Source of the DNA: Pseudomonadota bacterium
GTDB taxonomy: Bacteria > Pseudomonadota > Alphaproteobacteria > Sphingomonadales > Govanellaceae
Reading direction: 5' to 3'
DNA length: 64,000 nt
Assembly: GCA_003577275.1 (NCBI GenBank)
Contig: QEVO01000007.1
Location: forward strand, 68,840-132,839
Below are positions 5,294 through 49,600 of this stretch, piece after piece. Position 1 is the first letter of the stretch; each line of letters opens with the position of its first letter. The notes beneath the pieces are model-generated. The model worked only from the letters and a program-made list of their open reading frames with translations, searched no databases and was not told the origin of the DNA. The translations under genes and the position numbers were made by a program.

Positions 5294-5701
5294 CTAGTGG
5301 CCGAGGGAGCTATGCAGACGGGCGTCTATGGTGCTGAAATGGCGACCAAACCAGGTGGAGAGGCGGGAGGCGAGAACGTCATCGACATCGCCGCCCCCGT
5401 CTTCCTCATAAGCATCCATGATATCGCGGATTTCGTCCAAAAGACGCTCATGATCGGCCTTGTGCTCATCATAACCGGCATAATTCATGGCGCGCATCTG
5501 CTGTTCTTCCAGCGCAAAATGCGAAGCAATCTTGGCGTAGATCTCGCCAAGAAACGCCATCACCACATCCTTGCCGCCCTGCGCCTTCATTTCGGCGTGC
5601 AGTTCGTTGATGAGCGCGATGAGATGCTGATGCTCATGGTCCACCGCCGGCGACCCGGTGGAGTAAGTCTCGTTCCAGCTGAGGAGAGTCATGATAGCCA
5701 A
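5294..5701 (-). CDS. Hemerythrin-like metal-binding protein (bacteriohemerythrin)
   Basis: 135 aa. Motifs WNETYSTGSPAVDHEHQHLIALINEL, HFALEEQQM and YDEHKADHERL give the H / HxxxE / HxxxH / HxxxxD di-iron ligand pattern of hemerythrins. Confidence 0.85.
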   Translation of the reverse strand: MAIMTLLSWNETYSTGSPAVDHEHQHLIALINELHAEMKAQGGKDVVMAFLGEIYAKIASHFALEEQQMRAMNYAGYDEHKADHERLLDEIRDIMDAYEEDGGGDVDDVLASRLSTWFGRHFSTIDARLHSSLGH

Positions 5702-5705
5702 TCTC

Positions 5706-6218
5706 TTACTTCAGGATGATGAACCCGCCGCCCTCGGCGCGAAAGTCGATCACCATGCTGTGTCGCGGCCCCAAGTCCAGATCAAATGTCCGCTCGTAAT
5801 CGAAGCCGGTTTCCCGGCGGCTATCGCGCATACGGACCTCAATGTTATGCCGTCCGACAGGCAGTTTGAATTTTTGATATATTTTTGAAGGGCCGTCGCC
5901 AAAAAGCCCCGTCGGCTTAGCGCTATCACGATAAATCGTCTCGCCATCCAGCGCAAGCTCGACCACCAGAGGCACCCGACCGCGGGGGCAACTTTGCGGT
6001 TTTCGCATATTGGGCGGCAGCTTGGCCAGCTCCTCACGGCTGCGCTTGCGGCACTCCGTCACCGGCGCGCCGCCATGATTGAAGGCCAGCCGCAACAGCG
6101 CCTGATCCTCGGGGAAATGGCGATAGGCGGGCGTGGTCGCAAAATAGCCGATGAGCGCCGCCAGCGCCGCATAAAACACCCCCTGGCCGGCGAATTTAAG
6201 CACGCTTGACACCGGCAT
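5706..6218 (-). CDS. Membrane-anchored hypothetical protein
   Basis: 170 aa with one N-terminal hydrophobic helix (GVFYAALAALIGYFATT) followed by a soluble domain. It overlaps the end of the upstream gene and lies 4 nt from the hemerythrin gene. I recognise no family. Confidence 0.55.
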   Translation of the reverse strand: MPVSSVLKFAGQGVFYAALAALIGYFATTPAYRHFPEDQALLRLAFNHGGAPVTECRKRSREELAKLPPNMRKPQSCPRGRVPLVVELALDGETIYRDSAKPTGLFGDGPSKIYQKFKLPVGRHNIEVRMRDSRRETGFDYERTFDLDLGPRHSMVIDFRAEGGGFIILK

Positions 6219-7752
6219 CCTCCTCGGAATGAGCGGGCGTCATCTGCGCCAAGCGCTGACTGAAGGCTTGAAGCTCACGTTTGGCCTTGGCTTTTTCAAA
6301 TCTGCCGATCCACAGAGCGGCGATACGGTCACGCGGCACCCGCTGACGCAGATGGGGATCACGCTTGCGGTCGATCCGATCTTTCATCCACTCGACGCCG
6401 AAACGATTATAGCAGCCGCTATCCGGGCAGCCGACCAATGCTACGCCATTGGCCAGCTTCCGGCTTAACACATAATCGATGAACGATGGCGGCAGCGCCG
6501 CGATGCAAGGCAGGTCAACGACGGCGATATTCGCGTTTTCCAAATCCTTTGCCGCAACGCTGTAACGGCAGCTATAGACCAGAATACTGGACGGACCAGT
6601 CAGCCGCGCCGCCGCCTGCTCGGTATCCTGGCGCAGCACCTTGATCGGCCGGTCCGGCAGATCGATGCCGGTGATCGGCTCAACGGCGCGGCGGAACGGC
6701 GTCGAACTGGGACAGGCGCCGGCGCAGATGCCGCAACCGACGCACAGTTTCGGCTTGACCACCGCCTCGCTCGGAAACGGCTTACCGTCGCTGCGCGGCA
6801 TCATGGTGACGGCATTATAAGGGCAGTCTTCAACGCAACGGGTGCAGCCGTTGCAGTTGTCGAGGTCCACCACCGCCGCCGGAACGCGGCTGCCGCGCGG
6901 CAGCCACGGCACCACCATCAGCAAGAGGGTGGCGAGGCCGGCGAACGCCCACACCGAATTGCCGGGCCAGCTATCAAGCAGCGGAAAGAACGCCAGATAA
7001 TACCAGTCCATCGCCAGTTCGCCGGGCACCAGGGCCATATCGGCCGGCGGCTGGCTGACCGCCGGCTTGATGAACGACAACGCCAGCAGCATCAAGGTGA
7101 TGCCCGCCATCAGCCCGAACGCCGGATTGACCTTGGCGCGGCTGACGCGAACGATGTGAATCCATAAGGCAAACACCAGGAACAACGGCACGGCGATGTG
7201 CAGAAACACCAGGAGCGTAAAGAACCGATCGCTCAAGCCGGTGTTGGTGAGAAAATTGCGCGCGATGGTGCCGCCGAAAATCGGCAATAGATCAAGCCAT
7301 TCGGTGGTGTTGACGGCGATATATTGCGCCAGCTGGTCCCACACCAGCCAGTAGCCGGTAATGCCGGAAATCATTACCAGCCAGATCACCGGTGCGCCCG
7401 TTGCCCAGGAAAACCAGCGCACCCCCCGGAAGCGATCAAGGGCGAATTCCCGCAGCATGTGCAGCGCCATGACCACCACCATGCCATCCGAAGCGTAACG
7501 GTGGAAGCTGCGCATGACGCCGCCGAAGTACCACTGGTTATAGGTCAGGCGCTCCATGGAGCTATAGGCGCCATGGATGCTGGTATCAAAAAAGATATAA
7601 ATGTAAACACCGCTGGCAACGACGATCCACAGGAAGAAAAAGCCAATGGCGCCAAGCTGATAAAACGGATTCCACGCCGGGGTAAAGACCCGGGAGAGCG
7701 CTGCTTCCATAGGTTCGAAGCCACGCCGTAAGAGGGACTGTATGAACTTCAT
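6196..7752 (-). CDS. Fusion protein: dihaem cytochrome b domain + 2x[4Fe-4S] ferredoxin domain + MvhD/FlpD-like iron-sulfur domain
   Basis: 518 aa. Two H-x13-H pairs sit in predicted TM helices (FHRYASDGMVVVMALH, LHIAVPLFLVFALWIH). Two ferredoxin motifs are present (CNGCTRCVEDCP, CVGCGICAGACP). The C-terminal Cys-rich region reads ILVYSCRYS..VDLPCIAALP..VGCPDSGCYNRFG. An ATGA overlap joins it to the SCO1 gene. Confidence 0.8.
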   Translation of the reverse strand: MKFIQSLLRRGFEPMEAALSRVFTPAWNPFYQLGAIGFFFLWIVVASGVYIYIFFDTSIHGAYSSMERLTYNQWYFGGVMRSFHRYASDGMVVVMALHMLREFALDRFRGVRWFSWATGAPVIWLVMISGITGYWLVWDQLAQYIAVNTTEWLDLLPIFGGTIARNFLTNTGLSDRFFTLLVFLHIAVPLFLVFALWIHIVRVSRAKVNPAFGLMAGITLMLLALSFIKPAVSQPPADMALVPGELAMDWYYLAFFPLLDSWPGNSVWAFAGLATLLLMVVPWLPRGSRVPAAVVDLDNCNGCTRCVEDCPYNAVTMMPRSDGKPFPSEAVVKPKLCVGCGICAGACPSSTPFRRAVEPITGIDLPDRPIKVLRQDTEQAAARLTGPSSILVYSCRYSVAAKDLENANIAVVDLPCIAALPPSFIDYVLSRKLANGVALVGCPDSGCYNRFGVEWMKDRIDRKRDPHLRQRVPRDRIAALWIGRFEKAKAKRELQAFSQRLAQMTPAHSEEDAGVKRA

Positions 7753-8639
7753 GTCGAGCCGGATTCTCGTCTTTTCTTGGTGTATTTACGCAATAACCAT
7801 GCCTCGCGCACCAACACGACGGCGACCAGTGCAAGACATAGCCCACCGACGATGATTCCCACAAGCAAGGAATAGTCGAAATGATAGCGTTCGCTCCTGG
7901 GATCATAAATCGTGCAAATCAAACGCACCCGGCCGATTAGGCCATCAACGCTGGTAAGGTTCGCCTTGCCGCCGAAAATCAGTCGCTTGAGAGGATCAAC
8001 CACCATCGGCGGCTCGAAATCAGCGCCGTATACTTGGGTTGCCACCTTGCCATCGCTACTAAGAATGGTGGTTTGCGCCAAGTGATCGTAGCCCTTGGGC
8101 GAGGCGTAGAAAATAAAGCCCAGATCCTTGGCCAGCTTCGCCATGGTGTCGGCATCAGTGCTCAAGAGCGTCCAGCTTCGATGATTTGCGCCCTGCTCCT
8201 TGCCATACTGTCGCATGCGGGCAGGCGTGTCGACCGCCGTGTCGAAACCGATGGTGACGATGGAAAAGCTGTCTACGCCCAGCGCATTGCCGGCGGCCCG
8301 CGCTGAGCGGCTGAGCGCCTGGGTGATCATCGGGCAGGTATGATAGCAACTGGTGTAAATCAGGCTGATGACCAGTGGCTTGCCGCGGTATTGCGACAGC
8401 CTCACCGTGCGTCCGTCGGACGCGATGAAGCGATAGTCGCCGACCTCTCGCCCGATCGCCGCCTGACTGTAGGCTAGCGCCTGCCGTTCGTCGAATTCGG
8501 AAAATTTTGGGGCAGCCTCTTCGTGGCCGACGGCAGGATTGCCGCTATTGGCCTCGCCATGGGCAAAAGCGCCGCCGAGACTTGTCGCCAGCGTCAACCA
8601 AACCATCAGGACGCAAAGAACCAGATCCCTCTTACTCAT
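7749..8639 (-). CDS. SCO1/SenC family copper chaperone / thiol-disulfide oxidoreductase
   Basis: 296 aa with an N-terminal signal or anchor. CxxxCP copper motif (IYTSCYHTCPMITQAL), a downstream conserved His (YDHLAQTTIL) and a C-terminal TM helix. It overlaps both neighbours by 4 nt. Confidence 0.85.
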   Translation of the reverse strand: MSKRDLVLCVLMVWLTLATSLGGAFAHGEANSGNPAVGHEEAAPKFSEFDERQALAYSQAAIGREVGDYRFIASDGRTVRLSQYRGKPLVISLIYTSCYHTCPMITQALSRSARAAGNALGVDSFSIVTIGFDTAVDTPARMRQYGKEQGANHRSWTLLSTDADTMAKLAKDLGFIFYASPKGYDHLAQTTILSSDGKVATQVYGADFEPPMVVDPLKRLIFGGKANLTSVDGLIGRVRLICTIYDPRSERYHFDYSLLVGIIVGGLCLALVAVVLVREAWLLRKYTKKRRESGST

Positions 8640-9490
8640 CCGAACAACAACTTATCAACGATCGTTCCCACCAATAATAAGCTGACCTGCACCAAAGAAG
8701 CTTTAAAATTGGTAAGAGCATGGGGCTTGTCGGGAAATTGCACCAGTTGCACGTTGCGCACCAGGAACAGCGCGCCGCCGACGCCAGCGCATATTCCATA
8801 TATCCAGTTCATACCATAAATCAGCGGCAGCAGCGACAAGGGAACGAGGAGCGCGGTATGCGCCAAACTCGCCACCGCGGCAACCTTATTGCCGGCAACT
8901 ACCGGCAGCATAGGCACCCCCGCCGCGGCGTAATCGTCTTTCAAGGCAATGGCCAGGCTCCAAAAGTGCGGCGGCGTCCACAAGAACAACACCACGGCAA
9001 GGATGATGGCCTGGGGCGACAGGCCCGGATCTACCGCCGCAGCGCCGGCCAGCACCGCGAAACTGCCGGCCAGCCCGCCGATGACGATATTGAGCCAACT
9101 ACGGCGCTTCAGCCAGACCGTGTAGATCACGCCATAGGTCACCGCACCGAGAAAAACGTATAGCGCCGCCATGACATTGGTCGCCACGGCAGCCACGGCG
9201 ACCGCCGCTGCCAGCATGGCGACGATGAGGAGGGGCCAGAGAAGACTTGGCGCAAACGCGCCGGTAACAAAAGGCCGCGTGGCGGTGCGCGCCATGCGGG
9301 CGTCAAGATCGCGCTCAGCGTACTGATTGAAAGCGCCGGCAGCCGCCGAGGACGCCAGCACCGCCAGCGCCAACAGAAATGCCTGCCAACCGCCCGGCAT
9401 CGTCCCCGGCATGATCGCCATGCCGGCAAGGGCATTCAAGGTTATGGCGACACCGATCCGTAGCTTGAAAACCGAGGCGAATTGCCGCAA
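8636..9490 (-). CDS. ctaB: Protoheme IX farnesyltransferase (heme O synthase)
   Basis: 284 aa polytopic UbiA-family protein. Motifs NQYAERDLDARMARTATRPF and LWTPPHFWSLA are typical of CtaB/CyoE. The start is a TTG in the ORF track. Confidence 0.88.
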   Translation of the reverse strand: MRQFASVFKLRIGVAITLNALAGMAIMPGTMPGGWQAFLLALAVLASSAAAGAFNQYAERDLDARMARTATRPFVTGAFAPSLLWPLLIVAMLAAAVAVAAVATNVMAALYVFLGAVTYGVIYTVWLKRRSWLNIVIGGLAGSFAVLAGAAAVDPGLSPQAIILAVVLFLWTPPHFWSLAIALKDDYAAAGVPMLPVVAGNKVAAVASLAHTALLVPLSLLPLIYGMNWIYGICAGVGGALFLVRNVQLVQFPDKPHALTNFKASLVQVSLLLVGTIVDKLLFG

Positions 9491-9562: not shown

Positions 9563-11263
9563 TTACCTGAGCGGCCAAACCTCGGCCAGATACTTCCAGT
9601 TGATGAAGTAGTAGAGCACGAAAGAGACGAAGAATACCGCAACCAGCACCACGGTTCCCGGGATCTTCGCATGCTCCTCGCTGCCATAGGTGGCGACCGC
9701 CGCGGCTTCTTCCTTGATGTTGGCAAGCTTTGGCCACATGACCGTGTCTTTCTCCATCTTTTTACCAAAGAAGACGGAGGCGACCACGATGATGATGAAG
9801 ACAACGCCGCCGATCGCCGCCAGAATAGCGGACAACCCATTCAGTCCCATCATCAGGAACGCCGTCGCCGGCAGGTCAATGGACATCGCCGCATCAGCGA
9901 AGGTGATGTCCCAATGCCGGCGCGGCACGCCGAGCGTCCCGGCGCCCATCATGAACAGCGAGATACCCATGGCGCCCAAGCCAAAGAGATAGGGCTGCCA
10001 TTGCGCCAGCTTTTTCATCATGATCTGGCGCCGGAAGATCAGCGGGATCAAAAGATATGTGACGGCCATGAAGGCAAGCGTGGTGCCCGTCACCACCGTG
10101 GCGTGGAAGTGACCCGGTACGTAGATCGTATTGTGCATGATCAGGTTGATCTGCTCGGTGCCCATCACGACGCCTGAAATGCCGCCAAGGAATCCGAACA
10201 TCACCAACGACATGAACATGCCGGAAAATGCCGGGTTATCCCAAGGCGCCTTGCGCAGCCATTCGAACAGCCCTTTGTTCAGCCCCTTCCGCCGTTGCGC
10301 CGCCTCAATGGAGCCGGGCACGGTCATGCCGTGGATCATGCTGCCGAGAACCGCCAGATACATGGCGTAGCTGGTGTTGAAGATCTTCCATTCCGACGAT
10401 ACGCCGGGTTCCACCAGAAGATGGTGGGCGCTGGCGAGCTGAAGGAACAGGATATAGAGGAGGAACGCCGCGCGGCTGACCTTCTCGGACAGCGGCTTGG
10501 CACCCAGCACCAGGGCGGCGATGGCATACCACACCGCAACGTGGGCGGAGACGTTGATCTGCTGCGACGAGTGCCCCATGCCCCACCAGACAATCTTGTA
10601 AACCAGGGTGTCAATGTTGGCGAGCCAGCCCAGGGACCAGAAGTAGGTGGGGATCAAAATCACCGCGCCGGAGGCGATCGTAAACACGGCGATGATCGCC
10701 GCCGTGATGGCGCCGAAGGTCACCAGCGGTACCGACCCCTGATAGGTCTTTTCGTCCTTGGCGACGACCAAGGTGCCGAAAAAGACGAAAACGGCAACCA
10801 GCGCCCCGACGGCAAACACGATCAGACCAAGATAGAAATTGGGATCGGCCTGCATCGGCGGGTAGGAGGTGAACATCACGCTGGAATTGCCTTGCAGTAT
10901 CGCGATGTTGGCCAAGATGCCGCCGCCCACCATCAAAATAAACGCCAGCCAGGCCACTTTCGGCATCGCCAGCCGGCAGCCAAGCAGCACTGAGGAGGCA
11001 AAATAGAGAACCGCCACCTCAAAAAACAGGATCCACAGCAAAAGCACGTCGGTGCCATGGGCCGTCAGCACTTGATAAAATGTCTCCGCCGGCAGCAGAT
11101 GGACCGCCGGCCAGCGGGTCAACGCCACCAGCAGCCCCAAAAGGCCGCCCACCGCAAGAGATACCACCGCCGCCACCGCATTGGCCTTAATCAGGCTTTC
11201 GGTGGTTGCGTAAACCTTCAGTCCGGTATGGTTACAGATTCTAAAGTCAGCCGCTGTCGCCAT
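9563..11263 (-). CDS. Heme-copper oxidase superfamily subunit I, B-family-like, lacking the cross-link tyrosine (candidate NO reductase)
   Basis: 566 aa, about 12-13 TM helices. It aligns by eye with Thermus ba3 subunit I: LTAHG, SYPPMQADPNFYLG, WWGMGH, SAHHLLVEPG, PWDNPAF and HNTIYVPGHFH. The ba3 motif GHPIVY is GHSSQQ here. Confidence 0.9.
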   Translation of the reverse strand: MATAADFRICNHTGLKVYATTESLIKANAVAAVVSLAVGGLLGLLVALTRWPAVHLLPAETFYQVLTAHGTDVLLLWILFFEVAVLYFASSVLLGCRLAMPKVAWLAFILMVGGGILANIAILQGNSSVMFTSYPPMQADPNFYLGLIVFAVGALVAVFVFFGTLVVAKDEKTYQGSVPLVTFGAITAAIIAVFTIASGAVILIPTYFWSLGWLANIDTLVYKIVWWGMGHSSQQINVSAHVAVWYAIAALVLGAKPLSEKVSRAAFLLYILFLQLASAHHLLVEPGVSSEWKIFNTSYAMYLAVLGSMIHGMTVPGSIEAAQRRKGLNKGLFEWLRKAPWDNPAFSGMFMSLVMFGFLGGISGVVMGTEQINLIMHNTIYVPGHFHATVVTGTTLAFMAVTYLLIPLIFRRQIMMKKLAQWQPYLFGLGAMGISLFMMGAGTLGVPRRHWDITFADAAMSIDLPATAFLMMGLNGLSAILAAIGGVVFIIIVVASVFFGKKMEKDTVMWPKLANIKEEAAAVATYGSEEHAKIPGTVVLVAVFFVSFVLYYFINWKYLAEVWPLR

Positions 11264-11272
11264 GTTGTCCCC

Positions 11273-11818
11273 CTATTGATTTTCGACGACGCGGATGCGG
11301 CCCACCATCTGGTGGTGGCCAATTCCGCAAAATTCGTTGCATACGACGCTGAACACCCCGGCGGTCGTGGGCTCAACCGTCAACACCATCTCATAGTTGG
11401 GATGGACCTGGAGATTGATGTTTTCCGGTTGCAGGGAAAACCCATGCTGCCAATCGAGCGACGCCAAGTGCAGGCGGTACTTGCGGCCCTTTTCAAGCTC
11501 CAGCACCGGATACCATTCCCATAGCCGGGCCAGCATGTAGACATCGGAATCGGCCGGCGGGCGGACCACGGGAATACCGGTATCGCCCTCCTCGCCTACC
11601 TGATACTGCTCGATCATGGCGTCAACCTTGGCGGAAAACGCCTCAGGCGAGATCTTGTAGGTTTCGTTGGACAGGTTCTGCTCGCCCACGCTGTGCCAGA
11701 AGATCATGGTGAAGAACATCACCAGACCCCAGACGAAAGCGACGGCGATCCAAATCAACTCCGTTTTCTGGACGGGCTCGTTCCACCAGACACGGGCTTT
11801 AGGCGGGAAGATAGCCAT
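11273..11818 (-). CDS. Heme-copper oxidase subunit II with CuA centre (cupredoxin fold)
   Basis: 181 aa with one N-terminal TM helix. WQHGFSL...VVCNEFCGIGHHQMVGRIRVVE aligns with ba3 subunit II VIHGFHV...IICNQYCGLGHQNMFGTIVVKE. All CuA ligands (H, C, C, H, M) are present. Confidence 0.85.
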   Translation of the reverse strand: MAIFPPKARVWWNEPVQKTELIWIAVAFVWGLVMFFTMIFWHSVGEQNLSNETYKISPEAFSAKVDAMIEQYQVGEEGDTGIPVVRPPADSDVYMLARLWEWYPVLELEKGRKYRLHLASLDWQHGFSLQPENINLQVHPNYEMVLTVEPTTAGVFSVVCNEFCGIGHHQMVGRIRVVENQ

Positions 11819-11860: not shown

Positions 11861-12028
11861 TTACTGAGCCATCGGAATGTTGGCGACTTCCACCACGCCC
11901 CATACAATATAAAGGAGCGTCGGGCTCAACACGCCGATAAACAGTAACAGGAATGGATTGTCTAAGAGCCGTTGCATAAAGGGAATTTTTTCCCCTTCGG
12001 CGCCGGAACCGTCAGCATCATTCGCCAT
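11861..12028 (-). CDS. Small single-TM protein (55 aa), first gene of the oxidase operon
   Basis: Not in the ORF track because it is under 60 aa. It translates MANDADGSGAEGEKIPFMQRLLDNPFLLLFIGVLSPTLLYIVWGVVEVANIPMAQ. A strong SD (AAGGGGAG) lies 6 nt upstream of the ATG. It is positioned like the small subunit IIa of ba3-type oxidases. Confidence 0.5.
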   Translation of the reverse strand: MANDADGSGAEGEKIPFMQRLLDNPFLLLFIGVLSPTLLYIVWGVVEVANIPMAQ

Positions 12029-12133: not shown

Positions 12134-12147
12134 TTGATCTAGGTCAA
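12134..12147. promoter_or_regulatory. FNR/NNR/DNR-type box upstream of the oxidase operon
   Basis: TTGATCTAGGTCAA (TTGAT-N4-GTCAA), about 106 nt upstream of the small-ORF start codon and intergenic. Confidence 0.6.
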
Positions 12148-12180: not shown

Positions 12181-12366
12181 TCAGAATTCAAATTGTTCTA
12201 GAACGGCAAATGCCGCCAGCGCCAAGCCGAGAAGGATAGTAAAAAAAACCAGCGATCTGCCTTTAAGACGAGCGCCGTAGTAAACCTCGATGCGATTCAA
12301 TATCCAGTCCGCCATCACGTAAAGGATGACAGCGACCGCCGTGAACACAAGATATTTCATACCCAA
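12181..12366 (-). CDS. Small hypothetical membrane protein (61 aa, 2 predicted TM helices)
   Basis: MGMKYLVFTAVAVILYVMADWIL...LVFFTILLGLALAAFAVL. It lies between the nirS terminator and the FNR box of the next operon. No recognisable family, no clear SD, and it is more AT-rich than its neighbours. Confidence 0.35.
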   Translation of the reverse strand: MGMKYLVFTAVAVILYVMADWILNRIEVYYGARLKGRSLVFFTILLGLALAAFAVLEQFEF

Positions 12367-12380
12367 TATTACATAAGTAT

Positions 12381-12422
12381 GGAAAAAAAGGAAAGGCCGG
12401 GCCGTCTGCGGACGGCCCGGCC
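12381..12422 (-). terminator. Rho-independent terminator of nirS
   Basis: Perfect 12-bp stem GGCCGGGCCGTC-TGCG-GACGGCCCGGCC at 12395..12422. On the minus strand it is followed by TTTCCTTTTTTTCC. It starts 13 nt after the nirS stop. Confidence 0.8.
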
Positions 12423-12435
12423 CTCATATTATATT

Positions 12436-14244
<1,809 letters not shown>

Positions 14245-14269
14245 CTAAGTGATCCGAGGCATCTCGTAT

Positions 14270-14283
14270 TTGACATATGTCAA
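14270..14283. promoter_or_regulatory. FNR/NNR-type box in the nirS / nirI divergent promoter region
   Basis: Perfect palindrome TTGACATATGTCAA. Its centre is about 62 nt upstream of the nirS ATG (14214) and about 95 nt upstream of the nirI ATG (14372). Confidence 0.7.
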
Positions 14284-14371
14284 GTGAAGGTGCCGACTTG
14301 CAGCTTACAAGGTCGACCCGTTGACGCAGTTAGACCCTCTTGCTTTGGTCGAGCGCTGGAGGCGCCCGTAG

Positions 14372-16645
14372 ATGCGCTCATACTTGCATTGTATCCAGGC
14401 TGGTAGGCTGGGCGGTAAGCATGGGGGGGCTTGGCTGGCGGCCATTTGGATTGTGGCCGCCACCCTATTTTTGCCGGCGATGGCCCAGCCGCCGGGCCCG
14501 GTTCCACCGCTGCAAGGCGGTTTATTGACGACGATCTTCCCCGGCGCCATCCAGGCGTCGGCCATGACTGGCTCTCCGCCGGCGGCGGAAGTCCAGGTCG
14601 AGGGGGGATTTGGTGGGTACATCTTTTCGACATGGTCAGTCATCCACTCTACAGGATATTCTGGCGCGCCTATAGATATTTTGGTGGGGTTGAGCCGCGA
14701 CGGTCGGATTACCGGCGCGGTCTTACGGCAGCACACCGAACCCATCCTGGTGATCGGCATCTCGGACGCCGATCTGAAGGCGTTTGTCGCCCAATTCTCC
14801 GGGCTCTCCATTCGCGGCAAGATATCCCGCAAGGCCGGTGAGGCCGCCGGACGCCTGCCGGACGCCATCAGCGGCGCTACCGTGTCCAGCGCGGTCATTG
14901 GAGACGCCATTCTGACCTCGGCGCGGCTGGTGGCCGAATCACGGCGGCTGTTTGAGGCCGCGCCGACGGTCGCGCCCGAAATTCCCGAGGTCAAGAGCTG
15001 GCAGGACTTTATCGCCAGCGGCGCCATCGGTCACTTGCGGCTCAGCCGGGGCGAAGTGGCGGCGCGGCGCGGCGAAAAACTCGACCACGACGAGGAAGAG
15101 GACGAGCACGAGGACGATCCCTTTATTGATCTTTATGCCGGCGTGGTGACCCCGCATGCCATTGGCAGTCCGATGATCGGCGCGCAGACCTACAACAGAT
15201 TACGCGCCGAAATGGCTGCCGGCGATCAGCTATTCGCCATACTCGCCAACGGTCTTTATTCCTATAAGGGAACGCGCTATGTGCGCAGCGGCGTGTTCGA
15301 CCGCATCAGCCTGGTGCAGGGCGCGCTGACCATTCCCTTCACCCGCGACCGCTATGTCCTTATCGAGAATCTGGCGTTTCCCGACGGCGACATTCCTGAG
15401 TTTCGTGAAATCGGCCTCTTTATTCTGCCGGCAGACAGCGGCTTTGACGGGTCGCTCCCGTGGCGGCTTGATCTGCGGGTAGACGCCGATGACGCCAACC
15501 CTGTGGTTTTCTCGCTGGCCCACACGCCGCAGGCAAGCAGCGCCATCAAACCAGCGCCGGAGCCGGCGGCGGAACCGGCCCCGGCGCAGACAACACCCAC
15601 TCGGCAACCGCAGATACCATCTCAGCCGCAAGCGCATACTACAGTACAACCGCCGCCGCCACCGGCGCAAATCCAGGCAGAGGCGCAGCTCCCGACCGCG
15701 ATATCGATCGAGCCGCTGTGGAAGCGCGCTTGGACGACAAGCGTGCCGGAGATCATTTTTCTCACTCTGATGCTGACGACGCTAACCGGCATTCTGCTGT
15801 TTCAGGACTTCATCGTCCGCAAGACCCACGCCTATTTGATCGCCCGCAATATCTTTCTTGCCGTGACCTTGGTCTGGCTGGGCTACATTGCCGGCGGCCA
15901 GTTGTCGGTGGTCAATGTCCTGACCTTTGTTCACGCCCTGCGTCAGGATTTCCGCTGGGAATATTTCCTGGTATCGCCCATCATTTTCATCCTGTGGGGA
16001 TATGTGGCGGTGGCCATGCTGTTCTGGGGCCGCGGCGTCTACTGCGGCTGGCTCTGTCCATTCGGCGCGATGCAGGAACTGCTGAACGAAGCGGCGCGGC
16101 GCTTGAAGGTGCCGCAAATTCGCGTTCCCTTCGGCCTTCATGAACGGCTGTGGCCGATCAAGTACGTGATCTTTCTCGGGCTGTTTGCGATCTCGCTTTA
16201 TTCCATGGAGCTGGCGGTGATCGCCAGCGAAGTGGAGCCCTTCAAAACCGCCATCGTGCTTAAGTTCGTGCGCGGCTGGCCGTTCCTGTTTTATGTCGTG
16301 GCCATATTGGTCGCGGGATTATTCATCGAACGGTTTTTCTGTCGCTATTTCTGCCCGCTGGGCGCGGCGCTCGCCATTCCGTCGCGGCTCCATATGTTCG
16401 ATTGGCTGAAGCGGCGGCGGCAATGCGGCGCCGAGTGCAGCATTTGCGCCCAGCACTGCACCGTCCAGGCGGTTCATCCCAACGGCGCGATCAACCCCAA
16501 CGAATGCGTTCAGTGTCTGAAGTGTCAGACGCTATATTATGATGACCATACCTGCCCGCCCCTGATCGCCAGCCGCAAACGCGCCGAGAAATTGCGCGCC
16601 TCCGGCTCGCTGATCGCGGAAAAACTATCGGAGGGCAAGAAATGA
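14372..16645 (+). CDS. nirI: NirI/NosR family membrane FMN- and Fe-S-binding regulator/electron-transfer protein
   Basis: 757 aa with an N-terminal signal/TM. Periplasmic FMN-binding motif (ISGATVSS), several TM helices, CX3CP motifs (YCGWLCPFGAMQELL, CRYFCPLGAA) and a C-terminal ferredoxin-like CGAECSICAQHC...CVQCLKCQ. A GGAGG SD lies 9 nt upstream. It is divergent from nirS as in Paracoccus. Confidence 0.88.
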   Translation: MRSYLHCIQAGRLGGKHGGAWLAAIWIVAATLFLPAMAQPPGPVPPLQGGLLTTIFPGAIQASAMTGSPPAAEVQVEGGFGGYIFSTWSVIHSTGYSGAPIDILVGLSRDGRITGAVLRQHTEPILVIGISDADLKAFVAQFSGLSIRGKISRKAGEAAGRLPDAISGATVSSAVIGDAILTSARLVAESRRLFEAAPTVAPEIPEVKSWQDFIASGAIGHLRLSRGEVAARRGEKLDHDEEEDEHEDDPFIDLYAGVVTPHAIGSPMIGAQTYNRLRAEMAAGDQLFAILANGLYSYKGTRYVRSGVFDRISLVQGALTIPFTRDRYVLIENLAFPDGDIPEFREIGLFILPADSGFDGSLPWRLDLRVDADDANPVVFSLAHTPQASSAIKPAPEPAAEPAPAQTTPTRQPQIPSQPQAHTTVQPPPPPAQIQAEAQLPTAISIEPLWKRAWTTSVPEIIFLTLMLTTLTGILLFQDFIVRKTHAYLIARNIFLAVTLVWLGYIAGGQLSVVNVLTFVHALRQDFRWEYFLVSPIIFILWGYVAVAMLFWGRGVYCGWLCPFGAMQELLNEAARRLKVPQIRVPFGLHERLWPIKYVIFLGLFAISLYSMELAVIASEVEPFKTAIVLKFVRGWPFLFYVVAILVAGLFIERFFCRYFCPLGAALAIPSRLHMFDWLKRRRQCGAECSICAQHCTVQAVHPNGAINPNECVQCLKCQTLYYDDHTCPPLIASRKRAEKLRASGSLIAEKLSEGKK

Positions 16646-17637
16646 GCACGTCCATGCCGTCCCTCACACGCCGCCGGATGTTGACCATCATCGCCGCCAC
16701 GGGCGCGGCAAGCCTCTTGCCGTGGACGGGACGAGCGGCCACAGCCTACGAGGCAACCGAATGGCGCGGCTATGCCCTGGGCGCCGATGCCCGCCTGCTG
16801 CTTCATGGCCGCAGCAGGGCCGACGCGGAGCGGGCGATCGCCGTGTCCATGGCGGAAATCGAACGGCTGGAGAATGAGTTCAGTCTTTATCGCGCCAATT
16901 CCAGCTTATGCCGCTTGAATCGCGACGGCATGCTGCCGCGGCCGAGCGCCGATATGACCGCTTTGCTGCGGCTGGGTTGTCGCTTCGGCGATCTAAGCCA
17001 TGGCGCGTTCGACATTTCGGTGCAGCCGCTGTGGCAGCTTTATGCTGCGCATTTCGCCTTGCCCAACGCCGACCCGGCGGGACCGTCGGAAGATAAAATT
17101 AAAGAGACGCTTGCCAGAGTGGATTATCGGCGGATTAGGATCGACGATGACGCCATCCGGCTGGCTCCCGGCATGGCATTGACGCTTAATGGCATCGCGC
17201 AAGGATACATTACCGATCGGGTGGCCGATATCCTGCGTGATCAAGGTTGGTCGCACATCCTGGTTGATCTTGGCGAAACCCGAGCTCTCGATAGCCATCC
17301 CAGCGGGCGGCCGTGGCGCATCGGTCTGAAGGGCGGACCATCGGCCGCTGTCGCGCCGACGCTCGACATTGCCGATCGCGCCGTCGCCACCTCCGCCCGC
17401 CGCGGCTTCATATTTGATGCTGCCGGCCGCCATTGCCATCTCCTGGACCCTGCCTCGGGACATGCCGCCCAAGGCTTTGCCAGCGTCACCGTCGTTGCGC
17501 GTCGCGCCGCCGACGCAGACGCCTTATCCACGGCACTGTCGATCATGCCCCCGGCGCAAGCGGCATCACTGGCGCAACGCCTTAAGGACAGCGAAATTTG
17601 GGTCGGCGTCGATAACGGCAGCATTGCGCACCTCTAG
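16642..17637 (+). CDS. nirX: ApbE-family FAD:protein FMN transferase (NirX/NosX-like)
   Basis: 331 aa with a Tat-type signal (SLTRRRMLTIIAATGAASLL). ApbE motifs FDISVQPLWQLY and LNGIAQGYITDRVADIL. A 4-nt overlap joins it to nirI. Confidence 0.88.
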   Translation: MSTSMPSLTRRRMLTIIAATGAASLLPWTGRAATAYEATEWRGYALGADARLLLHGRSRADAERAIAVSMAEIERLENEFSLYRANSSLCRLNRDGMLPRPSADMTALLRLGCRFGDLSHGAFDISVQPLWQLYAAHFALPNADPAGPSEDKIKETLARVDYRRIRIDDDAIRLAPGMALTLNGIAQGYITDRVADILRDQGWSHILVDLGETRALDSHPSGRPWRIGLKGGPSAAVAPTLDIADRAVATSARRGFIFDAAGRHCHLLDPASGHAAQGFASVTVVARRAADADALSTALSIMPPAQAASLAQRLKDSEIWVGVDNGSIAHL

Positions 17638-17652: not shown

Positions 17653-17666
17653 TTGACCTTTATCAA
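17653..17666. promoter_or_regulatory. FNR/NNR-type box upstream of a TonB-dependent receptor gene
   Basis: TTGACCTTTATCAA (TTGAC-N4-ATCAA), 16 nt after the nirX stop and about 145 nt upstream of the TBDR start at 17809. Confidence 0.5.
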
Positions 17667-17808: not shown

Positions 17809-19995
17809 ATGAGAGCCCGGCGTATGTCGCACGCTGCCCCCCTCTCCGCTCTGCTGCTTTTGGCCATTGCCGCCGATGCGGCGGCTGAGGAAAATCCTCT
17901 GCTCTTGGCCGCTGCGGAAGATAGCGTCCGTTGGATGGAGGAAGTGCTCGTTACCGCCCGCAAGCGCGCCGAACTGGCGCAAGACGTGCCGATTTCCCTA
18001 AGCGTGTTCAGCGGTGATGAGCTGCGGCAATCCGGCATCAATCGCGTCGGAGAACTTGCCCTGTTCGCGCCCGGTCTTTCCTTCGAGGAAACGTACGGCC
18101 GCCAGCTTGACCGGCCAGTGATGCGCGGCATGTCGACGATCCTGTCGGGTACGCAGATTGAGCAAAACATGGCCTTCTATATCGATGGCGTGTTTGTCGC
18201 CGGCGCCGTTTCGGCGACCACTCTGGATGACGTGGAGCGGGTTGAAGTGCTGCGCGGGCCGCAAAATGCACTGTTCGGCCGCACCGCGCTGTCGGGCGCC
18301 GTCAACTTCATCACCCACAAGCCGAGCAAGGAATTCGAGGGACGCATCAAGGCGACGATTGCCACCCACGACGAATACCGCGCGAACGTGATGCTGAGCG
18401 GCCCTTTGGTGGAGGAACGCCTGTTGTTTCGCCTCAATGCCGGTTATTATACCTACGGCGGCGAATACAAGAATACCGTCACCAACAAGACCATCGGCGG
18501 CGAGGAGACCAAGGCCGTCGCCACGCAGCTTCAATGGCAGATCAGCGAAAACCTATCCGCGACGGCCAAGGTGGCCTATAGCGAGGATGACGATGAGCAT
18601 CCGCCGATCCGACTGCAAGACAGCAGCTACAACAACTGCTTTCTTAACACCCCCGATCAATATTACTGCGGCAAGGTCAAGATTTTTGATGAGGTGGCGC
18701 TTAACACCGACGCCGTCGATGGCGGCGGCTTGCGACGCAAAACCTGGCGCACCAGCCTGATGATTGACTGGGACTTTGACAGCAGCCGGTTAACTTCCAT
18801 CACATCCTATAATGACGAGGAGCTTTGGGCCGGCATCGATCTCGACGGTACGGCCATCAACGCCATCAACGGCTTTTTCCAGACCGTCGATATCAACAAT
18901 TTTGAGGATTTCTCCCAGGAGGTCCGCCTGACTTCTCCTGCCGAGGCGCGGCTGCGCTGGATGGTGGGCGGATATTATTATGATTTCACCCAAGACGGCG
19001 AGAATATCAAGCCACAGCCCGGAGACAAGGCGACGGATAAAACTGAGAACTATGCTCTGTTCGGGCAGCTGCAGTTTGACTTGAGCGATGTGCTGACGGC
19101 AAACGCGGAAATGCGCGCGGCAAAGGACAAGAAATCGCTCATTCGCGCCGATGGCGTCGTCTTTCGGGAAAATTTCACGACTCTTAACCCGCGCTTGGCG
19201 CTGGAATATAAATACCGCCCGGAAATACTTCTTTACGCCACCATCGCCAAGGGCAGCAAGCCCGGCGGCTTTAATAGCAATGCCTCTTTGCCGCCCGAAC
19301 TCCGATCATTCGACGAGGAACGCGCCTGGAACTACGAAGCTGGGCTCAAGGGATCTTGGCCGGAGCGCCGCCTCAGCTACAGCTTGTCAGCCTTTTATAT
19401 TGACTGGACGAAGCAGCAATTGACCTCCAGCTTCGATAATCCCAACGGACGCCCGATCATCTACACCCAAAATGCCGGCGAGACCGAGGTTAGCGGCATT
19501 GAAGCAGAGCTTTCCGTCCAGCCCGTTGATGCCTTCTACCTGCGCGCCAATTACGCCCTGGTGAACGCCGAATTCGAGCGCTTCGATGTGGCCGAACAGG
19601 CAGCGCTGACCGGAGACCCTTCGGTGGCGGGCAACAAAACGCCGCGGGCGCCCAAACATATGGCTTCGCTATCCGGCACCTATTCCGTACCGCTGGGGGG
19701 CGACTGGCAGGGCTATGTGCACGGCGATCTGACCTATGAAAGCAAACGCTTTGCCCAAGTCCACAATCTAGCCCACAGCGGCGACAAAGTGATCGCCAGC
19801 CTGCATGGCGGCGTGGAAAGCGGCAACGTCGGCATCGATCTTTGGGTAAAGAATTTATTCAACGACAAATATGCGACATCGATCACGCGCTATCGCGATT
19901 TTGCCGGGTTCAACTCCTTCCAGGCGCCGCGGGCGTTCGTCATTACCCTACCCCGCGGTCGGCAATTCGGCGCTTCGGCAACTTATCGGTTTTAA
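17809..19995 (+). CDS. TonB-dependent receptor
   Basis: 728 aa with a signal peptide. Plug motifs EEVLVTARKRAELAQDVPISLSVF and RVEVLRGPQNALFGRTALSGAVNF. C-terminal ...GASATYRF. Confidence 0.9.
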   Translation: MRARRMSHAAPLSALLLLAIAADAAAEENPLLLAAAEDSVRWMEEVLVTARKRAELAQDVPISLSVFSGDELRQSGINRVGELALFAPGLSFEETYGRQLDRPVMRGMSTILSGTQIEQNMAFYIDGVFVAGAVSATTLDDVERVEVLRGPQNALFGRTALSGAVNFITHKPSKEFEGRIKATIATHDEYRANVMLSGPLVEERLLFRLNAGYYTYGGEYKNTVTNKTIGGEETKAVATQLQWQISENLSATAKVAYSEDDDEHPPIRLQDSSYNNCFLNTPDQYYCGKVKIFDEVALNTDAVDGGGLRRKTWRTSLMIDWDFDSSRLTSITSYNDEELWAGIDLDGTAINAINGFFQTVDINNFEDFSQEVRLTSPAEARLRWMVGGYYYDFTQDGENIKPQPGDKATDKTENYALFGQLQFDLSDVLTANAEMRAAKDKKSLIRADGVVFRENFTTLNPRLALEYKYRPEILLYATIAKGSKPGGFNSNASLPPELRSFDEERAWNYEAGLKGSWPERRLSYSLSAFYIDWTKQQLTSSFDNPNGRPIIYTQNAGETEVSGIEAELSVQPVDAFYLRANYALVNAEFERFDVAEQAALTGDPSVAGNKTPRAPKHMASLSGTYSVPLGGDWQGYVHGDLTYESKRFAQVHNLAHSGDKVIASLHGGVESGNVGIDLWVKNLFNDKYATSITRYRDFAGFNSFQAPRAFVITLPRGRQFGASATYRF

Positions 19996-45293: not shown

Positions 45294-45308
45294 GAAAACG
45301 TCCTGACG

Positions 45309-47678: not shown

Positions 47679-47813
47679 TGTTCTCCCCTATCTTGGTGGC
47701 TGGATTGTCCGAAGCTCGATTTATTGATTTTTTTAGGCATTGCCGACAGCGCGCATCTTATGGCCGCGTCGCTGCACTATAGTTCATAGTACCCCAGAAC
47801 CTGAGATATGCAG

Positions 47814-47829: not shown

Positions 47830-47872
47830 ATACGGGCCTGCTCTATGGTAGGAAGCTCACGAACAGAGCCGG

Positions 47873-49589: not shown

Positions 49590-49600
49590 TTCCATCCCGC

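What the first reader, a model, noticed from the sequence alone, without database searches (positions are those of the whole stretch)
9563..11818. Heme-copper oxidase beside nirS lacks the catalytic cross-link tyrosine: candidate non-canonical (eNOR-like) nitric oxide reductase
Seen in subunit I: it aligns by eye along its length with Thermus ba3 (B-family). The low-spin heme His (LTAHG), CuB His (WWGMGH), CuB His pair (SAHHLLVEPG vs ba3 FHHQFADPG) and HNTIYVPGHFH (ba3 HNTAWVPGHFH) are all present. The ba3 helix-VI motif GHPIVY reads GHSSQQ, so the His-Tyr cross-link position is Gln.
Seen in subunit II: it keeps every CuA ligand (WQHGF...VVCNEFCGIGHHQM vs ba3 VIHGF...IICNQYCGLGHQNM).
Context: the operon starts about 400 nt downstream of nirS and has its own TTGAT-N4-GTCAA box. 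No norCB or qnor is present in the window.
Established knowledge, recalled from memory and not checked here: HCO families that lost the tyrosine were predicted to be NO reductases (Hemp and Gennis; Murali, Hemp and colleagues). One B-family-related family (eNOR, Rhodothermus marinus) was shown to reduce NO.
Inference: this enzyme is the NO-reducing partner of NirS rather than an O2 reductase.
Basis: partly seen in the sequence, partly recalled or inferred. Interest (0 to 1): 0.78.

Follow-up and report, generated by a model that had tools for sequence, protein, structure and literature searches.

The report
eNOR-type nitric oxide reductase operon
The two genes encode a respiratory enzyme of the already described eNOR family, which most likely turns nitric oxide into nitrous oxide, so this genome's denitrification pathway probably has no gap, although databases label the genes as an oxygen-using cytochrome oxidase.

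Summary
Window 9563-11818 (minus strand) encodes a heme-copper oxidase subunit I (566 aa) and a CuA subunit II (181 aa). Their closest solved relative is Thermus ba3. All six metal-binding histidines and all CuA ligands are present. The cross-link tyrosine (ba3 Y237) is Gln235, within the motif GHSSQQ.

This substitution is a family trait. Gln occupies that position in 96 of 96 relatives from Proteobacteria, Chloroflexi, Thermus and a haloarchaeon. These form a clade (81.5% bootstrap) apart from tyrosine-bearing B-family oxidases (99.5%). Gln at this site is the published signature of eNOR, whose Rhodothermus marinus member reduces NO and not O2.

The conserved gene order matches the published Ferrigenium eNOR operon: small TM protein, subunit II, subunit I, heme O synthase, SCO, cytochrome b/Fe-S fusion, a 170-aa protein, hemerythrin. 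An FNR-type box precedes the operon in 59 of 76 related loci and also precedes nirS here.

Verdict: an unrecognised member of a known family and a plausible NO-reducing partner of NirS. Activity was not tested, and the rest of the genome was not searched for other NORs. The conserved accessory genes have no known function and are the most interesting remainder.

The parts
12134..12147 (.). FNR/CRP-family (FNR, NNR or DNR type) binding box TTGATCTAGGTCAA upstream of the eNOR operon
   Evidence: 4 matches in the window against 0.27 expected; a box lies within 400 nt upstream of the first operon ORF in 59 of 76 related loci, against a background of 0.0145 per 400 nt.
11861..12028 (-). 55-aa protein with one transmembrane helix, first gene of the operon. 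It is a candidate small third subunit, positioned like cbaD (subunit IIa) of ba3 oxidase.
   Evidence: the ORF has an upstream ribosome-binding site. It is conserved directly upstream of subunit II in 78 of 86 loci, including the Thermus and Thermomicrobium plasmids. It matches no Pfam family.
11273..11818 (-). eNOR subunit II: one transmembrane helix plus a CuA cupredoxin domain
   Evidence: aligns with ba3 subunit II (E=4e-12); the CuA ligands H125, C160, C164, H168 and M171, and also E20 (placed like the ba3 K-channel entry residue E15), are conserved in at least 97% of 80 sequences.
9563..11263 (-). eNOR subunit I (566 aa), the catalytic heme/non-heme-metal subunit, with Gln235 in place of the cross-link tyrosine
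8636..9490 (-). Heme O synthase (CtaB/CyoE)
   Evidence: TIGR01473, 253 bits, above its cutoff; found at this position in 70 of 83 loci.
7749..8639 (-). SCO1/SenC-type copper chaperone (CxxxC motif), presumably for CuA assembly
   Evidence: PF02630; found in 75 of 83 loci. C97, C101 and a downstream His are conserved.
6196..7752 (-). Fusion protein of unknown role: di-heme cytochrome b (about 6 transmembrane helices), two [4Fe-4S] ferredoxin motifs and an MvhD/FlpD-like domain
   Evidence: Cytochrome_B, Fer4 and FlpD domains. H84/H98 and H185/H199 (H-x13-H twice) and two CxxCxxCxxxCP motifs are conserved; found in 69 of 83 loci.
5706..6218 (-). 170-aa membrane-anchored beta-sandwich protein of unknown function, possibly the 'eNOR scaffold protein' of the Ferrigenium preprint
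   Evidence: H48, C56, E63, C77 and R79 are invariant. AlphaFold2 model with mean pLDDT 95; no PDB fold match below E=1e-3; found in 65 of 83 loci.
5294..5701 (-). Bacteriohemerythrin, last gene of the conserved cluster
   Evidence: NF033749, 101 bits; found in 60 of 83 loci.
12181..12366 (-). Conserved small membrane protein of about 59-61 aa with two transmembrane helices, lying between the nirS terminator and the FNR box
   Evidence: conserved upstream of subunit II in 35 loci; called as a gene in related contigs. It matches no Pfam family.
12392..12425 (-). Intrinsic terminator after nirS (15-bp stem followed by a T run)
12436..14235 (-). nirS, cytochrome cd1 nitrite reductase, the producer of NO
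   Evidence: Cytochrom_D1, E=4e-154, plus a cytochrome c domain.
14270..14283 (.). Second FNR-type box (TTGACATATGTCAA) in the divergent nirS / nirI promoter region
14372..17637 (+). NosR/NirI-like membrane Fe-S flavoprotein (14372-16645) and ApbE/NirX-like protein (16642-17637), divergent from nirS
   Evidence: NosR model E=1e-205, which is below that model's cutoff. ApbE.

Best explanation
This is an operon for a nitric oxide reductase of the eNOR family. eNOR is a branch of the heme-copper oxidase superfamily derived from B-type (ba3-like) oxygen reductases.

Inferred mechanism:
- A periplasmic donor (cytochrome c or a cupredoxin) reduces the CuA centre of subunit II.
- Electrons pass to the low-spin heme (ligands H69 and H387).
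- They then reach the binuclear site, made of the high-spin heme (H385) and a non-heme metal held by H231, H280 and H281. There two NO molecules are reduced to N2O and water.
- This is a two-electron reaction, so the His-Tyr radical cofactor needed for O2 reduction is dispensable. Its position is Gln235, in a pocket lined by Gln234, Asn237 and Gln275.
- Protons probably enter from the cytoplasm through a remodelled K-channel: subunit II E20, then T314, H311, S308, Y246, Y270 and S259. That would make the step electrogenic.

The heme O synthase and the SCO protein in the operon build the cofactors. An FNR/NNR-type regulator switches the operon on together with nirS at low O2 or in the presence of NO.

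What is shown: the sequence features, the clade membership, the operon conservation and the regulatory box. What is inferred: the catalytic activity, the identity of the non-heme metal, the proton route and the regulation.
For: - Gln at the ba3 Y237 position: alignment to 1EHK; 120 of 120 close homologs; 96 of 96 diverse clade members.
- Published definition: eNOR is recognised by Gln at this site. O2 reductases have Tyr, sNOR and bNOR have Asn, cNOR and qNOR have Glu, and gNOR has Asp (PMC8756737, Table A4).
- Biochemistry: R. marinus eNOR reduces NO and does not reduce O2 (PMC11214002).
- Phylogeny: in an NJ tree of 517 columns with 200 bootstraps, the Gln clade has 81.5% support and splits from classical B-family oxidases at 99.5%. 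The clade holds a Natrarchaeobius protein and Chloroflexi proteins.
- The Thermus plasmid proteins in this clade have Lys in place of the second low-spin heme His. PMC11214002 reports this variant for some eNORs.
- The Ser309 equivalent is kept, as reported for eNOR and unlike sNOR.
- All CuA ligands are present.
- The operon order (subunit II, subunit I, heme O synthase, SCO, cytochrome b/[Fe-S] fusion, unknown protein) matches the Ferrigenium straubiae eNOR operon, whose transcripts were the most abundant of that organism's three HCOs under denitrifying conditions (bioRxiv 10.64898/2026.01.22.701106).
- The cluster is conserved in about 60-75 of 83 loci.
- Denitrification context: nirS is adjacent here and lies within 8 kb in about 10 of 80 species-level loci. 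NnrS, NosR-like, nirS and nirE genes are adjacent in L088.
- FNR-type boxes precede both this operon and nirS, and 59 of 76 related operons have one.
- CtaA follows the cluster in L087 and three other loci, as reported for many eNOR operons.
- The best PDB fold match is ba3 (TM about 0.8). No cNOR or qNOR appears in the top 50.
Against: - No activity data exist for this proteobacterial subclade. The only characterised eNOR (R. marinus) could not be retrieved, so its similarity to this protein is unknown. Other eNOR-clade members from outside the Proteobacteria are 41-49% identical.
- R. marinus eNOR turns over slowly (0.68 NO per second).
- An FNR-type box is equally typical of high-affinity O2 reductases.
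- The operon contains an O2-binding hemerythrin, and some relatives carry the O2-dependent CtaA, so a link to O2 is not excluded.
- Two eNOR-specific invariant residues at the periplasmic end of helix VIII (N296, Y299) lie at roughly the depth of the metal ligands in the AlphaFold2 secondary-structure map. No coordinates were available to exclude that Y299 approaches H231.
- Only 64 kb of the genome was seen, so a cNOR or qNOR elsewhere may do the main work.
- The tree is a simple distance tree, without curated reference sequences for sNOR, bNOR, gNOR or nNOR.
Confidence: 0.8

Rival explanations
1. It is a specialised low-oxygen terminal oxidase. In this reading a B-family derivative still reduces O2 despite lacking Tyr237, using another redox-active residue (for example the clade-specific Y299 or Y270), and FNR induces it under microoxia.
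For: - It has a B-family fold and a CuA subunit.
- FNR boxes also drive cbb3-type oxidases (established knowledge).
- Hemerythrin is in the operon, and CtaA is in some relatives' operons.
- Y299 is invariant and specific to the Gln clade.
- Databases name the protein a cytochrome c oxidase.
Against: - Y270 coexists with Y237 in the sister clade, so it is not a replacement for Y237.
- Neither tyrosine sits where the C-family migrated tyrosine lies, which is 6 residues before the HH pair. That position is Leu here.
- Murali et al. found no migrated tyrosine in their structural models of these families, and R. marinus eNOR showed no O2 reduction with several donors.
- The residues ba3 V236 and W239 are Gln and Asn here. 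From memory, these two residues line the hydrophobic O2 channel in ba3.
Confidence: 0.06
2. It is a true eNOR-family enzyme, but it acts mainly in NO detoxification or signalling and is not the respiratory partner of NirS. A canonical cNOR or qNOR elsewhere in the genome would carry the denitrification flux.
For: - Many organisms carry several NOR families (PMC11214002).
- nirS is adjacent in only about 10 of 80 related loci.
- Turnover of the characterised eNOR is low.
- nirS and the operon are separate transcription units, divided by a strong terminator.
Against: - nirS and the operon are immediately adjacent here and carry the same type of regulatory box.
- No norB-like or nirK-like motif was found within 8 kb of the cluster in any of 86 loci or in the window. 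This motif test relies on motifs recalled from memory and is weak.
- In Ferrigenium, eNOR transcripts were the most abundant of that organism's three HCOs under denitrifying conditions.
Confidence: 0.1
3. It catalyses a different reaction at the modified binuclear site, such as NO dismutation, N2O reduction, or reduction of another small oxidant.
For: - Other tyrosine-less HCO families have been proposed as NO dismutases or N2O reductases.
- The active-site pocket is lined with amide side chains (Q234, Q235, N237, Q275) and differs from that of any structurally characterised NOR.
- No nosZ is present in the window.
Against: - The proposed NO dismutase and N2O reductase families are related to qNOR and cNOR, not to the B family.
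- N2O production by an enzyme of the Gln-signature family has been measured directly.
Confidence: 0.04

Closest known systems
eNOR of Rhodothermus marinus DSM 4252 (Murali et al. 2024, PMC11214002)
   Same: By published description: a B-family-derived HCO with a CuA subunit, the cross-link tyrosine missing, and a conserved K-channel-like set of residues including the Ser309 equivalent. Its genome, like this window, encodes NirS and no canonical NOR was found.
   Different: The R. marinus sequence could not be fetched, so identity to it is unknown. R. marinus eNOR uses heme As, and many eNOR operons carry CtaA. This window has only heme O synthase and no CtaA. This proteobacterial subclade adds a cytochrome b/Fe-S fusion, a 170-aa protein and a hemerythrin.
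eNOR operon of Ferrigenium straubiae KS (bioRxiv 10.64898/2026.01.22.701106)
   Same: The same gene set: eNOR II, eNOR I, heme O synthase, sco1, a protein of unknown function called a 'scaffold', and a cytochrome b/[Fe-S] protein. That operon was also misannotated as coxAB.
   Different: Ferrigenium has an additional cytochrome b/Fe-S/FAD/NADH-domain protein. The preprint calls the cytochrome b proteins unusual, whereas here the cytochrome b/Fe-S/FlpD fusion is present in 69 of 83 loci. Hemerythrin and the two small membrane proteins are not mentioned in the passages read.
'Cytochrome a1-like hemoprotein' of Magnetospirillum magnetotacticum MS-1
   Same: Murali et al. cite it as an eNOR member. 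From memory (Tanimura and Fukumori 2000, not checked here), its genes are ordered subunit II, subunit I, heme O synthase, and the protein lacked cytochrome c oxidase activity.
Thermus thermophilus cytochrome ba3 (B-family O2 reductase; PDB 1EHK, 1XME)
   Same: It is the best sequence and fold match (E=5e-47; TM about 0.8). It has the same six histidines, a CuA subunit with one transmembrane helix, and a small single-helix protein encoded upstream.
   Different: Changes relative to ba3 (ba3 residue to query residue): Y237 to Q, V236 to Q, W239 to N, Y244 to V, F272 to Y, T312 to H, I85 to E. Identity is only about 26-31%. ba3 reduces O2.
sNOR (norSY-senC cluster of ammonia oxidisers and others)
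   Same: It is a tyrosine-less B-family relative with a CuA subunit and a SenC/SCO gene in the cluster.
   Different: sNOR has Asn at the tyrosine position and lacks the Ser309 equivalent. This protein has Gln and keeps the Ser (S308).

Membership tests
eNOR | Gln at the position of the cross-link tyrosine (four residues after the first B-site His) | tested here: met
   GHSSQQ aligns with GHPIVY. Gln is found in 120 of 120 close homologs and 96 of 96 diverse clade members. The definition comes from PMC8756737.
eNOR | All six heme and B-site histidine ligands retained (a Lys variant of one low-spin heme ligand is allowed) | tested here: met
   H69, H231, H280, H281, H385 and H387 are present. 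The Lys variant occurs in Thermus members of the same clade.
eNOR | CuA-binding cupredoxin subunit II | tested here: met
   H125, C160, C164, H168 and M171 align with the ba3 CuA ligands and are conserved in at least 97% of sequences.
eNOR | Groups phylogenetically with eNORs, apart from B-family O2 reductases and other NOR families | tested here: inconclusive
   In the NJ tree the Gln clade has 81.5% support and the split from the classical B family has 99.5%. The clade includes haloarchaeal, Chloroflexi and Thermus members, which are taxa reported to carry eNOR. No curated eNOR, sNOR, bNOR, gNOR or nNOR reference sequence could be included.
eNOR | Conserved K-channel-like polar residues, including the Ser309 equivalent | tested here: met
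   S308, Y246 and S259 are kept, T314 is Thr or Ser, and H311 replaces T312. Y270 appears where Y244 is lost. Subunit II E20 is invariant.
eNOR | Reduces NO to N2O and does not reduce O2 | not testable with these tools
   Biochemistry exists only for R. marinus eNOR.
eNOR | Heme A-type cofactors; a CtaA gene in many operons | tested here: inconclusive
   The operon has heme O synthase. No CtaA is present in the window. CtaA follows the same cluster in L087, L006, L027 and L034.
eNOR | Operon containing heme O synthase, SCO and the protein of unknown function | tested here: met
   The gene order is conserved in 60-75 of 83 loci and matches the Ferrigenium eNOR operon.
sNOR | Asn at the tyrosine position; Ser309 equivalent absent | tested here: not met
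   Gln235 and S308 are present. The SenC gene in the cluster does not discriminate between the families.
bNOR (CuANOR) | Asn at the tyrosine position; found only in Bacillales | tested here: not met
   The residue is Gln235, and the source is a proteobacterial MAG.
gNOR | One B-site His replaced by Asp; subunit II lacks the CuA ligands | tested here: not met
   All three B-site His and all CuA ligands are present.
nNOR | cNOR-like Glu in the active site; low-spin heme with His/Met ligation | tested here: not met
   The residues are Gln235 and H387.
cNOR / qNOR | Glu four residues after the first B-site His; cytochrome c subunit or fused N-terminal domain; related to the C family | tested here: not met
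   The protein has Gln rather than Glu and a CuA subunit. The nearest folds are ba3 and A-family oxidases, and no cNOR or qNOR is in the top 50.
B-family O2 reductase (ba3 type) | His-Tyr cross-link tyrosine in helix VI | tested here: not met
   Y237 is replaced by Gln, invariantly. The fold and the CuA subunit are otherwise of B type.

The most novel reading that the evidence does not exclude
In the proteobacterial eNOR clade the enzyme is not a simple two-subunit reductase. It would be the core of a conserved nine-gene unit. In this reading, the di-heme cytochrome b / 2x[4Fe-4S] / MvhD-like fusion, the membrane-anchored beta-sandwich protein with an invariant His-Cys-Cys triad, and the hemerythrin form a quinol-linked cytoplasmic redox module that works with eNOR. 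Possible roles are keeping a hemerythrin reduced so it can capture O2 for heme A synthesis or capture NO under near-anoxic denitrifying conditions, or feeding quinol electrons to the enzyme. The two small membrane proteins would be additional subunits.
Probability: 0.2. Interest if true: 0.6.

Novelty: new member of a known kind. Interest (0 to 1): 0.3.

Why it matters
Public databases label this protein and thousands of close relatives as cytochrome c oxidase or even cbb3-type oxidase. Genome surveys would therefore score this organism, and many Alpha-, Beta- and Gammaproteobacteria, as having nirS but no NOR. Recognising the genes as eNOR closes the NO step of denitrification and changes predictions of N2O production. 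If the conserved K-channel works, NO reduction here also conserves energy.

The cross-species conservation of the FNR-type box, of two small membrane proteins, and of the cytochrome b/Fe-S, 170-aa and hemerythrin genes gives concrete targets for genetics. The family itself and its chemistry are already published, so the discovery value is modest.

Tried and rejected
- **Retrieving the R. marinus eNOR for direct comparison.** The single genome-collection scan used peptide patterns specific to close relatives and returned only proteobacterial loci. A protein search seeded with the Thermomicrobium homolog returned Chloroflexi proteins and no Rhodothermus. The supplements of Murali et al. are not held.
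- **Tree building.** The Biopython BLOSUM distance and bootstrap run timed out. I replaced it with a numpy Kimura-distance NJ tree. No maximum-likelihood tool was available.
- **Fold of the 170-aa protein.** I tested the idea that it is a Cox11-like metallochaperone. The model is confident, but the best PDB matches are generic beta-sandwiches with E above 1e-3, so the idea is neither supported nor excluded.
- **Motif scan for NirK (HNxDFH) and NorB (HLWVEG) in all loci.** It found nothing. The motifs were recalled from memory, so this negative result is weak.
- **Y270 as a migrated cross-link tyrosine.** Rejected, because it is also present in the tyrosine-retaining sister clade and co-varies with loss of Y244.
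- **sNOR, suggested by the SenC gene.** Rejected on the Gln and Ser308 criteria.
- **First translation of the small ORF.** It was out of frame and was corrected.
- **Literature search for the Magnetospirillum a1-like protein.** It gave nothing usable.
Full report
**What is at the coordinates.** On the minus strand, 11273-11818 encodes a 181-aa protein and 9563-11263 a 566-aa protein. The larger one is a COX1-family protein (Pfam PF00115, E=3e-67). No NCBIfam oxidase model reaches its cutoff. Its best solved relative is Thermus thermophilus cytochrome ba3 subunit I (E about 5e-47 over residues 33-491). An AlphaFold2 model (pLDDT 84) matches ba3 with TM about 0.8, ahead of all A-family oxidases, and no cNOR or qNOR appears in the top 50.

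H69, H231, H280/H281 and H385/H387 correspond to ba3 H72, H233, H282/H283 and H384/H386. GHSSQQ lines up without a gap with GHPIVY, so the cross-link Tyr237 is Gln235. Subunit II aligns with ba3 subunit II (E=4e-12) and keeps all CuA ligands: H125, C160, C164, H168 and M171.

**Source.** The identical subunit I is deposited as 'MAG: cytochrome C oxidase subunit I [Proteobacteria bacterium]'. A Sphingomonadales MAG contig (BROCD004) is 95.5% identical in DNA over 14 kb. The window therefore comes from a close relative of that MAG.

**The tyrosine loss is a family trait.** More than 8000 database proteins match. The best 120 are 73-92% identical, and all have Gln-Gln at ba3 positions 236/237. 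Homologs on a Thermomicrobium roseum megaplasmid and on Thermus plasmids (44-49% identical) also read GHGAQQ.

In a set of 96 diverse sequences (Proteobacteria, Chloroflexi, Thermus, a Natrarchaeobius haloarchaeon), both Gln residues are invariant. Other clade markers, written as ba3 residue to query residue, are W239 to N237, Y244 to V242, F272 to Y270, T312 to H311 and I85 to E82. S308 (ba3 S309), Y246 (Y248), S259 (S261) and R448/R449 are retained.

**Phylogeny.** I searched 1.84 billion 50%-identity cluster representatives and took the full-length hits. A neighbour-joining tree (517 columns, 200 bootstraps) puts the query in a Gln-Gln clade with 81.5% support.

A sister group at about 36-45% identity still has Tyr237 (motif Q-Y) but already shares the Q236, N239, Y272, H312 and E85 changes. 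Named members of that group come from Hodarchaeales and Thermoproteota MAGs. Together these clades separate from classical Val-Tyr B-family oxidases (ba3, Geobacillus, Deinococcus, Haloarcula) with 99.5% support.

The invariant Y270 is not a migrated cross-link tyrosine, because it coexists with Y237 in the sister clade and tracks the loss of the K-channel residue Y244. The position where C-family oxidases place their migrated tyrosine (6 residues before the HH pair) is Leu.

One caveat remains. N296 and Y299 are specific to the Gln clade. By helix depth in the model they lie near the level of the metal ligands. Without coordinates I could not measure their distance to H231.

**Comparison with known families.** The literature defines eNOR by Gln at this position. 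O2 reductases have Tyr, cNOR and qNOR have Glu, sNOR and bNOR have Asn, and gNOR has Asp (PMC8756737, Table A4). Murali et al. 2024 (PMC11214002) report the following:
- R. marinus eNOR reduces NO at 0.68 per second and does not reduce O2.
- eNOR keeps CuA and a K-channel-like residue set including the Ser309 equivalent, which sNOR lacks.
- Some eNORs ligate the low-spin heme with His and Lys.
- Many eNOR operons contain CtaA.

All sequence-testable points fit. Gln235, CuA and S308 are present. The Thermus members of the clade have exactly the HFK (Lys) variant. CtaA follows the same cluster in L087 and three other loci, although it is absent from this window.

sNOR is worth excluding explicitly because the cluster contains a SenC/SCO gene. 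It fails on the Gln and Ser308 criteria. I could not retrieve the R. marinus sequence or the curated family HMMs, so membership rests on signature residues, clade composition and operon architecture, not on a reference-anchored tree.

**The operon.** Comparison with 80 species-level genome loci, plasmid loci and two further contigs shows a conserved unit. Loci counts are out of 83 unless stated:

| Window coordinates | Gene | Loci with it |
|---|---|---|
| 11861-12028 | 55-aa single-TM protein | 78 of 86 |
| 11273-11818 | subunit II | 80 |
| 9563-11263 | subunit I | 83 |
| 8636-9490 | heme O synthase | 70 |
| 7749-8639 | SCO/SenC | 75 |
| 6196-7752 | cytochrome b / 2x[4Fe-4S] / FlpD fusion | 69 |
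| 5706-6218 | 170-aa protein | 65 |
| 5294-5701 | hemerythrin | 60 |

- The 55-aa gene sits where ba3 has cbaD.
- A second small membrane protein (12181-12366) lies further upstream in 35 loci.
- The cytochrome b fusion keeps two H-x13-H heme motifs and two CxxCxxCxxxCP cluster motifs.
- The 170-aa protein is a confidently modelled membrane-anchored beta-sandwich with invariant H48, C56, E63, C77 and R79. It has no informative fold match or Pfam family.

The same gene set (eNOR II, eNOR I, heme O synthase, sco1, a 'scaffold' of unknown function, cytochrome b/[Fe-S]) is described for the Ferrigenium straubiae eNOR operon. There the genes had been misread as coxAB, and eNOR transcripts were the most abundant of that organism's three HCOs under denitrifying Fe(II) oxidation.

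**Link to NirS and regulation.** nirS (12436-14235) ends in a strong terminator (12392-12425). The eNOR operon is therefore a separate transcription unit.

The box TTGATCTAGGTCAA (12134-12147) lies about 110 nt upstream of the 55-aa ORF. The window has four such boxes where 0.27 are expected. Three of them are in promoter regions of this island, including the divergent nirS/nirI region at 14270-14283.

Across relatives, a box lies within 400 nt upstream of the first ORF in 59 of 76 loci, against a background of 0.0145 per 400 nt. CRP/FNR-family regulator genes lie within 8 kb in 20 loci. This argues strongly for control by an FNR-family regulator. It cannot tell O2-sensing FNR from NO-sensing NNR or DNR.

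A true nirS (above 60% identity) lies within 8 kb in about 10 of 80 loci. In L088 the cluster is flanked by NnrS, a NosR-like gene, nirS and nirE.

No second COX1-family gene is among the non-overlapped ORFs of 180 aa or more that were scanned. The rest of the genome was not available.

**Mechanism (inferred).** Electrons from a periplasmic carrier enter at CuA, pass the low-spin heme, and reach the high-spin heme and non-heme metal site. There two NO are reduced to N2O. The reaction needs only two electrons, so the tyrosine radical cofactor is dispensable. Protons probably come from the cytoplasm through the remodelled K-channel, which would make the step electrogenic, as proposed for eNOR and shown for bNOR.

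**Verdict.** The enzyme belongs to a family proposed in 2008 and characterised in 2024, with the operon type described in 2026, so I rate it a new member of a known kind and of modest interest.

The parts that remain open are the roles of the conserved cytochrome b/Fe-S fusion, the His-Cys-Cys beta-sandwich protein, the hemerythrin and the two small membrane proteins. Whether this subclade truly reduces NO, and whether it pumps protons, is also untested.

Noticed in passing
window 11861-12028 (-): A 55-aa single-TM ORF (MANDADGSGAEGEKIPFMQRLLDNPFLLLFIGVLSPTLLYIVWGVVEVANIPMAQ) lies directly upstream of subunit II. It falls below the default ORF length threshold. It is conserved in 78 of 86 loci, including the Thermus and Thermomicrobium plasmids, and matches no Pfam family. 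It is a likely unrecognised small subunit, positioned like ba3 subunit IIa.
   Followed up: partly
window 12181-12366 (-): A conserved membrane protein of about 59-61 aa with two TM helices lies between the nirS terminator and the FNR box. It is present upstream of the operon in 35 loci and is called as a gene in related contigs. Its function is unknown.
   Followed up: partly
window 6196-7752 (-): A fusion of di-heme cytochrome b, two [4Fe-4S] motifs and an MvhD/FlpD-like domain is conserved in 69 of 83 eNOR loci. The Ferrigenium preprint treats such cytochrome b/[Fe-S] genes as unusual, but in this clade they are the rule. By helix count the Fe-S part should face the cytoplasm, which suggests a link between the quinone pool and a cytoplasmic partner.
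   Followed up: partly
window 5706-6218 (-): A 170-aa membrane-anchored beta-sandwich protein (AlphaFold2 pLDDT 95) has invariant H48, C56, E63, C77 and R79. It has no Pfam family and no PDB fold match below E=1e-3. It may be a metal-handling assembly factor.
   Followed up: partly
window 5294-5701 (-): A bacteriohemerythrin is the last gene of the eNOR cluster in 60 of 83 loci. It could bind O2 or NO, and its role beside a NO reductase is unexplained.
   Followed up: no
window 17653-17666 and 17809-19995 (+): A third FNR-type box (TTGACCTTTATCAA) sits between the nirX-like gene and a TonB-dependent receptor gene. The receptor may therefore belong to the same low-oxygen/NO regulon.
   Followed up: no
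window 12436-17637: nirS has divergent NosR/NirI-like and ApbE/NirX-like genes. No heme d1 biosynthesis genes (the nirE to nirN type) and no nosZ are present anywhere in the 64 kb, so these must lie elsewhere in the genome if NirS is functional.
   Followed up: partly
proteins P0128, P0131, P0133, P0146: A sister clade of eNOR, with named members from Hodarchaeales (Asgard) and Thermoproteota MAGs, keeps the cross-link Tyr237. It already has the eNOR-type changes V236Q, W239N, Y244V/I/A, F272Y, T312H and I85E. It looks like the O2-reducing lineage from which eNOR arose.
   Followed up: partly
proteins P0189, P0191, P0199, P0262: This clade of HCO homologs has Tyr in place of one B-site histidine (ba3 H282) and in place of the high-spin heme ligand (H384). 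It keeps H233, Y237, H283 and H386. I could not match this pattern to any named HCO family.
   Followed up: partly
window subunit I residues E82, N296, Y299: E82 is an invariant membrane-embedded Glu in helix II, shared with the sister clade and absent from classical B-family oxidases. N296 and Y299 at the periplasmic end of helix VIII are invariant only in the Gln clade. Their roles are unknown.
   Followed up: no
L083 (Thermus thermophilus plasmid pTthSNM6-6b) 8307-10668: The Thermus eNOR-type genes sit beside cytochrome P460, a multicopper oxidase, an Rrf2-family regulator and a DUF542 (ScdA/YtfE N-terminal type) gene. This is a nitrogen-oxide stress context without the proteobacterial accessory genes.
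   Followed up: no
L001-L080: Subunit I sequences 70-80% identical occur in Alpha-, Beta- and Gammaproteobacteria and on a Defluviimonas plasmid. One locus is binned as a Halobacteria archaeon. This suggests frequent horizontal transfer of the whole cluster, or a binning error in the last case.
   Followed up: no
window 44208-57677: Five paralogous membrane dipeptidase (Peptidase_M19) genes, several TonB-dependent receptors, Rieske oxygenases and two LuxR-type autoinducer-binding regulators fill the rest of the window. They are unrelated to the finding.
   Followed up: no
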